NCBI RefSeq assembly: GCF_024298765.1
Contig: NZ_CP101211.1
Length of the DNA stretch: 64,000 bases
Source of the DNA: Escherichia coli
GTDB taxonomy: Bacteria; Pseudomonadota; Gammaproteobacteria; Enterobacterales; Enterobacteriaceae
Reading direction: 5' to 3' (one strand)
Made by a program: the position numbers. The stretch's first letter is position 1, and each line of letters starts with the position of its first letter. Positions 56,101 through 59,100 of the stretch are shown piece by piece.

Positions 56101-59100
56101 AACTTTCCAGAACAACCGGCACTGAACGTATGTTTAAGGAAGAGCTGGCGTTATCCTTAATTTGTTGGGTTTTCACCAGTCCATTTACCAACTGGACCGA
56201 TAAAGTCTTCAGTGGTATTGAAGTTCCGTCTGAAGGACCGTCAACATTACTGGGTGAGGCTGAAAAATTCTTTCGTTTTGTCGTTAATGAAGAAGGCTAC
56301 GACGCAGGAAGGGCTGCTCTTGGTCTTGACCTATGTTGTTTTTCACTTCCGTCGTGTTTGTTCCCGGACGCTGCCCTGTCTGAGGAAGAGGTTATGAGTA
56401 AGTTAACCGGAGAAGTTATCCATGGGATTCTTCTTTCCTTACCTGAATTTATTGATATGCCAGAAGTGCTCGCTTACCAGGTCAGGGATGAAATTCTTGC
56501 TTTTAACACTCGCTGTGGAGACGGGATCTTTCATGGTTGGAACACGGCTTCAGAATTGTGGAAGTTTGAAATCTTTCCCCGCACCACCATCATGATGCAG
56601 CATACTTCGGCAATACATTAAAATTAGGCGGGGCAGAATGCATAAAAAACTTTTTCTTCTCGAATGGAAACCCTGTCAGAGCCGCGTATGGGCCGGTTGG
56701 ATGGCCCTGTGGTTGACTATCAGTTTTCTGATGTTATCTGCCTTGCTTATGACAGATCATCTCCTGAACAAAGTCATCCTGCCGCCAACATGGTTGTTGA
56801 TCTGGTTTTCGCCAATGCTGGGGTTTTTGATAAAAGTTCGCGTCGTCGAAACTCAACATTTCCTGGAGCATGACCTCTGTGTTGCAGGTTTCTCTTTTTA
56901 CCGCTGGAAGAGGTTAGTTTCTCCCGGGCTTTGGTCAGTTGACTGTATAAATGGTCGTTTTCGCCTCAATCGGATCACCCAGGTGGGTAAGACTATCCAC
57001 TATCCATGGCGTCTCCATTATCATCCTTTGTTCATGAGCCCTATCGAACATAAATCGCATGCTGTGAAAGCTGTTTCAAAATGACTTCTTTAGAGGTTTA
57101 CATGACATTTATGTTCTGCAAGGTCAGCCAGGGCAGCAAAATTGATTTGAAATAACATGAGCCTGGAGAAACGTATGAGTTATGACGATTTGCCCTATTT
57201 TCGTGACCAGATTCTGGAACGTATCGACTCGCTTAAGTGTTTTCTTTCGAACACCCCCCCGCTGATGGCAAACCTGATGACTGTCTCCACCGTATCTCGA
57301 ACAGAAGAGCGACTGAAGCAGGTTAAACCCATCAGGGTTAGTGTTAAAGACGATGCTTCGGTTGAGGAAATTATTCAGGCACTTACTGACATCTGTGTGG
57401 ATGACATAGAGTCATTAAGTCATGATTCCACCAAAGTGACCACTAAATACCCGGGTCTTATCATTGTCCCAGAAAGAGCAGATCTTCTCGAAAGCTTGAT
57501 CACATCTATAAATGAAGCAAAAAATGATTTTGCTGCGGCAATGAGGCGTATCGATAATAAAAAGAATGTCCGTTTTGATAAAGTGCACAAGAAGCTCCCG
57601 GGCCTTGTCGCTATGCACTCAACAAGAAATGTCCTTTTCATCAAGTCCCAGCTTAAAAAAGTTACTTTTTCATGGCGGCTAAACCGAAACCAGGAAGTTA
57701 AAACAGCAGAGCAACTTGTGAGTTTGTTGGAGCGCAGGAGAGCCTCAGAAGTAAAAAATGTAGCAACTACCAATTTGAATGTCGTGTCTAATATCGATAA
57801 GGCTTTACACCGTCTTGAATTTCACCCACTGAAGCAGGGCGAATCTTATCGCCTTTGTCGAACTAACTCTTTCCCTGTTCCGATTGCTCACATTTTTGCA
57901 TTTAGGCCTGAAGGGCAGGAACGAAACGGGAATAAATATGCTGAGACTGATTATTCAGTAGTAAAAGCATCCTTGCCCATTTTCGCAGCAGGCAACATAC
58001 CTCAATTAAAAACGCTCTCTGACTGGGCTCCTGAAAACAGCCAGGGCCCGTCCAACCAACGGAAGCTGAGCCTGAAATATACAGAACTCGTGCCGGGGGC
58101 TGAGCTGGGCATTTTCATTGTCAGCCCCGAAAATTAAGGAACAACAATGCAATGGATTTCCACAGCCAGCCAGAAAATCGATGAGCGTCTCTATCGTGTC
58201 TGTGTCTGGGTAAAAAAATATCACGCTGATGCGATTAACCGCGTTGTGCTTACCGTTGATCTAAGTAAAGCCCGACATGACCCTGACGAGGACCAGGTAA
58301 GAGCAGAGCTGCTGTGCGGCCATTATTTTTTGCTTCGTAAGGAAAACGCTTCGAACTCTGCGCCTGACGATCAAAAGTTTGCTTTCCTGCCTGACGGGCG
58401 CAATCTGTGTTGGCAGACCGCAACCCCGGTGCTTCAGCATCTCCTGCTCAATAAAAACGTTCCTGAGTCGCTGAGGTTGCTTACGGACTACATACATATG
58501 CGTCTGGCCAGGCTGACAATGGTACCAATGTCCGGAACCATCATGAACGAGGCTCTGCTGGACAGCATCAGCTGGGTTAAGGTGGATTTGACCTACTTCT
58601 GGCAGTACGAACAGCTCAGCTCTCATCTGGGACCCATCCAGATAACCCACAAGGCACTAGTACGCTTCGGGCATCTGGCAAAGAATGATGAAAACTCCAG
58701 TGCCATAAGAATCCTGCGTCAGCGTCTGTCTTCAGAATTCTTACAAGAATTTCAGATGGCTGAGGATGAGCTAAAGCGCAAACAGTCGTTGATGGGCACC
58801 ATGGACGTGAAAATGCTGTTTCATGCTCATTACCCCAGCCAGAAGATGCTGGTGGCTCGATATAAAAATGGTTGGGTAATGGTGGATTGTTTTCTGTTTC
58901 ATCATACCAAACCTAAGAAAAAAGCAAAAAACAAAACTACTGTGGCTAAGCCTCAACTTAAAGAGACTAAAAGAGAAGGGAGTGAAAATGGAACTGGGCA
59001 TTATGGTGTGCATCGTGTTGTTACTCTCCGTGGCGGCGGCGTGGATCAGTAATAAGACAGTTGATTTGCTCGAAAGATTCTATTTCAAGCGTCCGCTGAG

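What the first reader, a model, noticed from the sequence alone, without database searches (positions are those of the whole stretch)
57175..58137. Plasmid-borne Tus-like replication-terminus protein
The 320-aa product shows several collinear matches to E. coli Tus (recalled sequence), implying the plasmid encodes its own fork-arrest protein, presumably acting with Ter-like sites to impose unidirectional replication from the RepFIB-like origin or to coordinate two replicons. No convincing Ter core (GTTGTAAC) was found by eye near the gene. The five unknown genes upstream (54836-57084) and the one downstream (58147-59052) are co-directional and may belong to the same module.
Basis: partly seen in the sequence, partly recalled or inferred. 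Interest (0 to 1): 0.6.

Follow-up and report, generated by a model that had tools for sequence, protein, structure and literature searches.

The report
Known plasmid Tus-like terminator gene
The gene is a real but very diverged relative of the E. coli replication-fork-stopping protein Tus, carried on the backbone of IncHI resistance plasmids; it is already annotated and mentioned in the literature, and neither its DNA target nor its role has been established.

Summary
The ORF at 57175-58137 (+, 320 aa) is real and belongs to the Tus family. Evidence: Pfam PF05472 E=6e-19; profile-profile to chromosomal Tus 99.5%, E=1e-22 over 273 columns; the AlphaFold model matches only Tus structures in the PDB (E=5e-16, full length). 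Identity to E. coli Tus is about 19%. The three residues that hold the locking cytosine (F140, H144, G149) and E49 are conserved.

The window is the first 64 kb of an IncHI2 plasmid. [quoted passage not shown] The R27 orthologue R0186 was annotated as Tus-like, and a published single deletion of it did not affect plasmid stability. Plasmid-borne Tus genes were described by Galli et al. 2019. The finding is therefore correct but already known.

No E. coli-type Ter exists in the window or next to any orthologue. One Ter-like site lies outside the window on the full plasmid (p about 0.013), lacks the G/C at position 6, and is not conserved in R27. The flanking genes form a deeply conserved operon, and the downstream 301-aa protein has an RNase H-like fold.

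By-product: a 15-bp palindrome, GAAAAGTWACTTTTC, is more than 100-fold over-represented on IncHI backbones and remains unexplained.

The parts
57175..58137 (+). tus-like gene (320 aa; RefSeq WP_000119427.1; orthologue of R27 R0186)
   Evidence: Lock-pocket residues F134/H138/G143 and E45 are conserved.
57165..57169 (+). Shine-Dalgarno GGAGA for the 57175 start
   Evidence: Read directly from the sequence; the orthologue alignment supports this start.
54836..57084 (+). Five conserved upstream ORFs of the same operon (91, 196, 85, 178 and 148 aa); the 196-aa and 148-aa products have hydrophobic, membrane-like segments
   Evidence: ORFs and translations; RefSeq CDS; the same order in R27, L005, L006, L008 and L009; no family hits. 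Membrane character judged by eye from the translations.
54800..54817 (+). Conserved promoter-like element AGAGATTTGTATACTGTT (TATACT -10) just upstream of the first small ORF
   Evidence: Conserved island between IncHI2 and R27 and in L005/L006. The promoter role is inferred.
54612..54636 (+). Conserved hairpin plus T-run (GGCACGG..CCGTGCC TTTTTTTT), terminator-like, separating the preceding gene from the operon
   Evidence: Conserved at the same relative position in all six loci.
58147..59052 (+). Downstream 301-aa ORF starting 10 nt after the tus-like stop; RNase H-like fold
58988..59332 (+). 114-aa ORF with hydrophobic segments, last gene of the co-directional set
   Evidence: conserved position.
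59354..60529 (-). Convergent tyrosine recombinase, always next to the module
   Evidence: RefSeq annotation; PHROG integrase E=4.6e-21; only faint XerC similarity; conserved neighbour.
60700..60912 (+). hha-family gene, conserved neighbour
   Evidence: Pfam HHA in L006, L008 and L009.
57658..57668 (.). Copy of the dispersed palindrome AAAGTTACTTT inside the tus-like gene (codons KKVTF)
   Evidence: also present in R27 at the aligned site and in L005, L006, L007 and L008.

Best explanation
The ORF encodes the IncHI-plasmid lineage of the Tus family (PF05472). Shown here: it is a full-length, two-domain Tus fold at about 19% identity to E. coli Tus; it is a backbone gene of IncHI2 and IncHI1 plasmids and more distant relatives; and it sits inside a deeply conserved operon next to a tyrosine recombinase and hha. 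Inferred: it binds DNA as a monomer and stalls DnaB-driven forks from one side by the same cytosine-trapping device as E. coli Tus, because the three pocket residues and E49 are retained. Its target would be a plasmid-specific asymmetric site rather than the E. coli Ter consensus, because the C-terminal half and several DNA-facing residues have diverged. GC skew in both plasmids places the terminus between hns and the thermonuclease/methylase genes. In R27 that is only 11-16 kb from the gene, so its most likely role is a non-essential backstop keeping fork convergence in that zone. The cognate site was not identified.
For: Family and fold. Small separate clade within about 212 Tus-family clusters. 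Residues F140/H144/G149 map to F134/H138/G143 and E49 to E45 in two independent alignments; their roles are taken from Table 1 of PMC10331603; they are invariant or nearly invariant within the clade. Conserved synteny. Backbone status, with more than 1000 plasmids carrying the region. Cumulative GC skew: IncHI2 minimum about 2 kb and maximum about 117 kb; R27 minimum about 56-71 kb, next to RepHI1B, and maximum about 146-151 kb, with the gene at 162 kb. Plasmid-borne Tus as a recognised class, proposed to be ancestral to chromosomal tus: PMC6549158.
Against: No cognate Ter was found. Nothing lies next to the gene as TerB does in E. coli, and neither the window nor R27 scores above chance. E47 and R198 are not conserved and A173 is replaced by R168. 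NCBIfam equivalog cut-offs are missed by a wide margin (53 against 323 bits). Single deletion of R27 R0186 had no effect on stability in E. coli MG1655. The operon partners are membrane-like proteins and an RNase H-fold protein, not obvious replication factors. GC skew is confounded by gene orientation, and in IncHI2 the skew maximum falls in acquired DNA.
Confidence: 0.55

Rival explanations
1. The protein keeps the Tus fold but is no longer a replication terminator. It would act with its operon partners (membrane-like proteins, RNase H-fold protein) in another DNA transaction, such as gene regulation, conjugative DNA processing, or interference with other replicons.
For: The operon is conserved as a unit over large divergence. 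Its partners include hydrophobic proteins and an RNase H-like fold. No Ter was found. Deletion caused no stability defect.
Against: The residues specific to the fork-triggered cytosine lock (F134, H138, G143) and E45 are conserved across the clade. A mere DNA binder would have little reason to keep them. No match to defence-system models.
Confidence: 0.25
2. On IncHI2, fork arrest uses the single E. coli-type Ter-like site AATATTTAAGTTGTAACTAATAT. It lies at 200,830 (+) of NZ_CP037959.1, outside the window, about 2 kb from the relaxase/oriT region, and would be bound by the plasmid protein, the host Tus, or both. In this orientation it would stop forks moving towards higher coordinates and let origin-proximal counter-clockwise forks pass.
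For: PWM score 21.2, close to the lowest-scoring of the ten recalled E. coli Ter sequences (TerJ 21.4, TerF 21.7); only 2 of 150 simulations reach it. It is intergenic, retained in 960 IncHI2 plasmids with the core intact in the diverged variant. The orientation fits trap logic, judged against TerB on the MG1655 + strand. PMC5923156 mentions a 'potential ter site' near oriT.
Against: Position 6 is T, so the locking cytosine is absent. At the orthologous R27 spacer 9 of 13 core bases match, no better than the 71% background, and R27 has no site above chance anywhere, although it carries a 59%-identical protein. One hit at p about 0.013 is weak given how many searches were run.
Confidence: 0.1
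3. The protein's target is the dispersed palindrome GAAAAGTWACTTTTC, which shares GTAACT with the Ter core.
For: The motif is extremely enriched on the replicons that carry the gene. It shares six bases with Ter, and one copy lies inside the gene itself.
Against: The motif and its flanks are two-fold symmetric, which implies a dimeric binder, whereas Tus is a monomer on an asymmetric site. No base is conserved at the position equivalent to Ter position 6. About 40 non-polar barriers every 4 kb would be incompatible with replication. The most distant tus-like locus, L009, has no copy in 13 kb.
Confidence: 0.05
4. The resemblance to Tus is due to chance or low complexity, and the ORF is unrelated.
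For: Single-sequence comparison with PDB Tus is only E=0.08.
Against: Every profile-based and structure-based test is highly significant and specific to Tus.
Confidence: 0.01

Closest known systems
E. coli Tus (PDB 1ECR, 2I06, 4XR0; Pfam PF05472)
   Same: Full-length two-domain fold. Homology extends over 273 columns. The cytosine-pocket residues F140/H144/G149 and E49 are conserved. Similar length (320 against 309 aa).
   Different: Only 15-19% identity. It misses the NCBIfam equivalog cut-offs. E47 and R198 are not conserved and A173 becomes R. There is no Ter upstream of the gene, whereas TerB lies just upstream of the E. coli tus start codon. It sits inside a multi-gene operon on a plasmid.
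R27 (IncHI1) ORF R0186 / WP_000135563.1
   Same: Orthologue at 59% identity with identical gene neighbourhood; already annotated as Tus-like.
   Different: In R27 it lies beside the RepFIA replicon and 11-16 kb from the skew-inferred terminus. In IncHI2 the tellurite-resistance cluster and other insertions separate it from that zone.
'Mobile' plasmid-borne Tus homologues (Galli et al. 2019, PMC6549158)
   Same: The same class: PF05472 proteins on gammaproteobacterial plasmids, proposed as the source of chromosomal tus.
   Different: That study is phylogenetic. No Ter site or function was defined for the IncHI lineage.
Ter sites of plasmids R6K and R1, which use the host Tus
   Same: Plasmid replication limited by Tus-Ter barriers near origins or termini (review PMC10331603).
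   Different: From my own knowledge, those plasmids carry E. coli-type Ter sites and no tus gene. IncHI plasmids carry a tus-like gene and no convincing Ter.
Bacillus subtilis RTP (PF02334)
   Same: Functional analogue: a polar replication-fork barrier protein.
   Different: From my own knowledge it has an unrelated fold and binds as a dimer. There is no similarity here, as only Tus was hit.

Membership tests
Tus / Ter-binding protein family (Pfam PF05472) | Significant match to the family profile | tested here: met
   PF05472 E=6.1e-19, 68.6 bits, residues 14-211. All clade members carry the precomputed PF05472 hit.
Tus / Ter-binding protein family (Pfam PF05472) | Homology over the whole length, including the C-terminal domain | tested here: met
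   hhalign 99.5%, E=1.1e-22, query 4-301 against Tus 8-297.
Tus / Ter-binding protein family (Pfam PF05472) | Tus three-dimensional fold (two domains joined by DNA-binding beta-strands) | tested here: met
   AF2 model pLDDT 79.8, pTM 0.73. In Foldseek PDB the only hits with E<=0.001 are Tus (1ECR, 4XR0-2), E=5.5e-16, TM 0.58-0.61, about 331 aligned columns.
Tus / Ter-binding protein family (Pfam PF05472) | Cytosine-lock pocket residues F140, H144, G149 | tested here: met
   They map to F134, H138 and G143 in a 124-sequence MSA and in hhalign, and are at least 90% conserved in the clade. Roles from PMC10331603 Table 1.
Tus / Ter-binding protein family (Pfam PF05472) | Residues that slow the approaching fork or stabilise the lock (E49, E47, R198) | tested here: inconclusive
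   E49 maps to E45 and is conserved. E47 maps to T43, and R198 falls in a poorly aligned segment and is not conserved.
Chromosomal Tus equivalog (NCBIfam NF002810 / TIGR02648) | Score above the curated equivalog cut-off | tested here: not met
   53.1 bits against a cut-off of 323, and 21 against 178.3. It is a family member but not an equivalog of chromosomal Tus.
Tus-Ter replication fork trap (system) | Ter site with the GTTGTAAC core and G/C at position 6 on the same replicon | tested here: inconclusive
   Window: none above chance. Whole IncHI2: one site at 200,830 with a perfect core but T at position 6, p about 0.013. R27: none.
Tus-Ter replication fork trap (system) | Ter site at the tus promoter (the TerB-tus arrangement) | tested here: not met
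   No Ter-like or conserved element lies upstream of the gene in seven loci. In most relatives the upstream gene overlaps the start.
Tus-Ter replication fork trap (system) | Oppositely oriented Ter sites bracketing the terminus | tested here: not met
   No pair of sites was found. The one inverted 17-mer pair examined is the stem of a long hairpin element.
Tus-Ter replication fork trap (system) | Polar arrest of DnaB-driven forks; monomeric sequence-specific DNA binding | not testable with these tools
   Requires EMSA or SPR, 2D gels, or marker-frequency analysis.

The most novel reading that the evidence does not exclude
The IncHI Tus-like protein recognises a non-canonical Ter that keeps the cytosine lock but has a different core. 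Together with the co-conserved RNase H-fold protein and the adjacent tyrosine recombinase, it forms a plasmid 'terminus-processing' module (arrest, processing, dimer resolution). This would represent the ancestral plasmid state from which chromosomal Tus-Ter was domesticated.
Probability: 0.15. Interest if true: 0.55.

Novelty: already known. Interest (0 to 1): 0.2.

Why it matters
As it stands this is a correct re-discovery of an existing annotation on one of the most common multidrug-resistance plasmid backbones. What remains of value is that no Ter site or function has been defined for this gene, even though it keeps the residues of the Tus cytosine lock. Defining its target would show how far the lock mechanism tolerates change in site specificity, and would test the proposal that chromosomal Tus came from plasmids. 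The unexplained 15-bp palindrome scattered over IncHI backbones may matter more, because it points to a plasmid-wide DNA-binding system on clinically important plasmids.

Tried and rejected
1. E. coli-type Ter near the gene or in the window. Exact core, degenerate consensus and a 23-bp PWM built from ten Ter sequences recalled from memory all gave chance-level results. TerB alone was verified against the genome.

2. A conserved site upstream of the gene in seven orthologous loci. None was found; the upstream gene overlaps the start in most relatives.

3. De novo 14-mer footprinting across six 12-kb loci. It recovered only coding conservation, a terminator hairpin and a promoter-like element.

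4. The Ter-like hits inside trhK and trhN that recur in both plasmids. I rejected these as coding-sequence conservation, because each has different core mismatches.

5. The IncHI2 site at 200,830 as the cognate Ter. It is kept only as a low-probability rival because position 6 is T and R27 does not conserve it.

6. The inverted 17-mer pair at IncHI2 88,141/88,377. I rejected it as a Ter pair: it is the base of a long hairpin.

7. The palindrome as the Tus-like target. I rejected this on symmetry and copy number.

8. Family libraries for the neighbouring ORFs (NCBIfam, PHROGs, PADLOC, Pfam). No informative hits.

9. The R27 transcriptome paper does not mention R0184-R0187, Tus or terminus in its main text.

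10. The truncated 214-aa allele P0004 as evidence of dispensability. This is inconclusive: gene spacing is unchanged and the upstream gene is also shortened in that record, so assembly errors cannot be excluded.

Full report
**What is there.** The window contains an ORF at 57157..58137 on the + strand. That start is the supported one: twelve orthologues align from the same first column, GGAGA lies six bases upstream, and RefSeq protein WP_000119427.1 has these limits.

**Which replicon.** The window is the first 64 kb of an IncHI2 plasmid. Position 1 is the start of a RepB-family initiator gene. It is followed by IncHI transfer genes (trhB, trhV, TraC-family, rsp, trhF, trhU, trhN), two partition modules and a long run of hypothetical genes. 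PLSDB types the matching plasmids as IncHI2A, MOBH, MPF_F. More than 1000 plasmid records carry at least 80% of the 6.6-kb region around the gene.

**Is it Tus?** Yes, as a family member.
- A single-sequence search of PDB sequences finds E. coli Tus only weakly (E=0.08).
- Pfam PF05472 gives E=6.1e-19 over residues 14-211.
- NCBIfam NF002810 gives E=2.6e-14.
- A profile of twelve clade members finds Tus in the PDB at E=2.8e-10.
- Profile-profile comparison with a chromosomal-type Tus alignment gives 99.5% probability, E=1.1e-22, over 273 columns (residues 4-301 against Tus 8-297).
- An AlphaFold2 model (pLDDT 79.8, pTM 0.73) matches only Tus structures with E<=0.001 (E=5.5e-16, TM about 0.6, full length).

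Identity to E. coli Tus is 15-19%. The NCBIfam scores are far below the curated equivalog cut-offs (53 against 323 bits). So this is not an equivalog of chromosomal Tus. It belongs to a small separate clade: a scan of 1.84 billion representative proteins found 212 related clusters at E up to 0.001, and only seven below 1e-30.

**Functional residues.** A review lists F140, H144 and G149 as holding the flipped cytosine C6, E49 and R198 as slowing the approaching fork, and E47 as stabilising the lock (PMC10331603). I mapped these residues with two independent alignments: a 124-sequence MSA through intermediates and hhalign.
- Conserved: F140/H144/G149 map to F134/H138/G143, and E49 maps to E45. 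All four are invariant or nearly so within the clade.
- Also conserved: K89 maps to K87, and the P-I-A segment of the interdomain strand is kept.
- Not conserved: E47 (T43) and R198. A173 is replaced by R168.

Retention of the lock pocket is the main reason I think fork arrest is still the function. This is inference, not demonstration.

**Already known.**
[quoted passage not shown] - The R27 orthologue R0186 is described in the R27 annotation as 26% identical over 111 residues to Klebsiella Tus (supplement of PMC4853401).
- In that study single-ORF deletions including "Del 186" were made, and none reduced R27 stability in E. coli MG1655.
- Galli et al. 2019 catalogued plasmid-borne "mobile" tus genes and proposed that chromosomal tus was domesticated from a plasmid (PMC6549158).

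I found no paper that defines a Ter site or a function for the IncHI protein.

**The Ter question.**
- *Window.* GTTGTAAC occurs twice (chance level), without Ter-like flanks.
- *PWM.* I built a 23-bp matrix from ten E. coli Ter sequences recalled from memory. TerB was verified directly upstream of tus in MG1655.
- *PWM results.* The best window score is 15.1 (64 of 150 simulations reach it). The best R27 score is 17.3 (36 of 150), inside an accessory tcuR gene.
- *Around the orthologues.* Nothing Ter-like is positionally conserved in seven loci. In most relatives the upstream gene overlaps the tus-like start, so the E. coli TerB-tus promoter arrangement is absent.
- *De novo footprinting.* It recovered only coding conservation, a terminator hairpin (54612-54636) and a promoter-like element (54800-54817) ahead of the first small ORF.
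- *Complete IncHI2 plasmid.* On NZ_CP037959.1 (278,374 bp) one site stands out: AATATTTAAGTTGTAACTAATAT at 200,830 (+), score 21.2, reached by 2 of 150 simulations. It is intergenic, about 2 kb from the mobI/mobH relaxase region, and is retained in 960 IncHI2 plasmids.
- *Orientation of that site.* It would block forks moving towards higher coordinates, which fits trap logic.
- *Why it is not the cognate site.* Position 6 is T, so the locking cytosine is missing. At the orthologous R27 spacer 9 of 13 core bases match, no better than the 71% background. I treat it as a lead. It may be the "potential ter site" of the literature.

**Position on the replicon.** A complete IncHI2 plasmid has two initiator genes, at position 1 and at about 261 kb. 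The tus-like gene lies at about 56 kb.
- Cumulative GC skew in IncHI2 has its minimum at about 2 kb and its maximum at about 117 kb.
- In R27 the minimum is at about 56-71 kb, beside the RepB-family initiator gene at 54.4-55.2 kb (RepHI1B in the literature's nomenclature), and the maximum at about 146-151 kb.
- In both plasmids the maximum falls between hns and the thermonuclease/cytosine-methylase genes.
- In R27 the tus-like gene (162 kb) is 11-16 kb from that point. In IncHI2 the tellurite cluster and other insertions intervene.

This fits a terminus-proximal ancestral location. The caveat is that skew is confounded by gene orientation.

**The module.** One gene order is kept in IncHI2, R27, a Photorhabdus replicon and three metagenomic or SRA contigs, including proteins as distant as 120 bits from the family profile. 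The order is:
1. a toprim protein;
2. several ORFs of about 300 aa;
3. small ORFs (91, 196, 85, 178, 148 aa);
4. in most relatives, an extra ORF of about 204 aa that IncHI2 lacks;
5. the tus-like gene;
6. a 260-301-aa ORF;
7. a 106-114-aa ORF;
8. a convergent tyrosine recombinase;
9. hha.

None of the small ORFs matches NCBIfam, PHROGs, PADLOC or Pfam informatively. By eye, the 196-, 148- and 114-aa products have membrane-like hydrophobic segments.

**An unexpected by-product.** While looking for islands conserved between IncHI2 and R27, I found a dispersed palindrome, AAAGTWACTTT (extended form GAAAAGTWACTTTTC).
- *Copy number.* It occurs 16 times in the window (0.11 expected), 43 times on the IncHI2 plasmid (0.17 expected) and 42 times on R27 (0.23 expected).
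- *Location.* 41 of the 43 IncHI2 copies lie outside the 95-185 kb block dominated by acquired resistance genes and insertion sequences.
- *Placement.* About half lie outside long ORFs, although only about 19% of the DNA does. Coding copies occur in all three phases.
- *Conservation.* 20 of 22 IncHI2 copies with alignable flanks (65-79% identity) have an exact copy within 40 bp of the mapped orthologous position in R27.
- *Symmetry.* The flanks are two-fold symmetric, and no base is conserved at the position equivalent to Ter position 6.
- *Link to the gene.* One copy lies inside the tus-like gene at 57658, and four of five relatives keep it.
- *Literature.* No paper in the searchable library mentions the sequence in a plasmid context.

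The symmetry points to a dimeric binder, not a Tus-type monomer. The motif is unexplained.

**Verdict.** The functional interpretation (own fork-arrest system, unidirectional replication, coordination of replicons) is untested and not supported by any Ter site in the window. The finding is already known. Interest is low for the finding itself. The missing Ter, the conserved operon with an RNase H-fold partner, and the dispersed palindrome are the parts worth following.

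Noticed in passing
window 987, 4825, 7134, 19080, 21154, 24090, 28177, 29360, 31724, 38247, 38926, 45372, 49117, 52688, 57658, 61103 (11 bp each): Dispersed palindrome AAAGTWACTTT (extended form GAAAAGTWACTTTTC). It has 16 copies in the window against 0.11 expected, 43 on a whole IncHI2 plasmid and 42 on R27. Nearly all IncHI2 copies lie on backbone DNA, intergenic placement is enriched, coding copies occur in all three phases, and 20 of 22 alignable copies are positionally conserved between IncHI2 and R27. The symmetry implies a dimeric binder. 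I found no literature on it.
   Followed up: partly
window 12124-15594: ORF-free array of 249-bp tandem repeats (about 9.8 plus 3.5 copies) between the TraC-family gene (trhC in R27) and parA, with GC about 0.50 against 0.41 for the backbone. Each unit carries a 22-mer, GATTTAACCCCCTTAATCGCCA, which is also conserved in the equivalent R27 gap although the flanks are not. It could be a centromere or incompatibility array.
   Followed up: partly
[not shown]
   Followed up: partly
window 53444-54170: An IS1 copy (insA/insB on the - strand) splits a 318-aa backbone ORF into 52833-53450 and 54183-54572. The ORF is intact (WP_000149830.1) in related plasmids.
   Followed up: partly
window 21362-23147: The parM-like ORF is 234 aa here and is followed by an IS5-family transposase gene (22167-23147, - strand). 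In another IncHI2 plasmid parM is 345 aa, so the second partition module may be truncated in this lineage.
   Followed up: no
L014 830-852 (NZ_CP037959.1 200,830-200,852; outside the window): The only E. coli-type Ter-like site on a complete IncHI2 plasmid: AATATTTAAGTTGTAACTAATAT. It is intergenic and near the relaxase/oriT region, with p about 0.013. Position 6 is T and the site is not conserved in R27.
   Followed up: partly
L011 38141-38393 (NZ_CP037959.1 88,141-88,393; R27 152,165-152,416; outside the window): Single-copy, unannotated element of about 253 nt, bounded by perfect 17-bp inverted repeats. It folds into one long imperfect hairpin (z = -5.3 on the + strand), is conserved in 1451 plasmids and has no Rfam match. 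It may be a single-strand initiation or promoter element, or an sRNA.
   Followed up: partly
window about 48800-54570: A run of five similar-sized ORFs (about 290-320 aa) precedes the operon, and a comparable run is present in every related locus. Possible paralogues; not compared.
   Followed up: no
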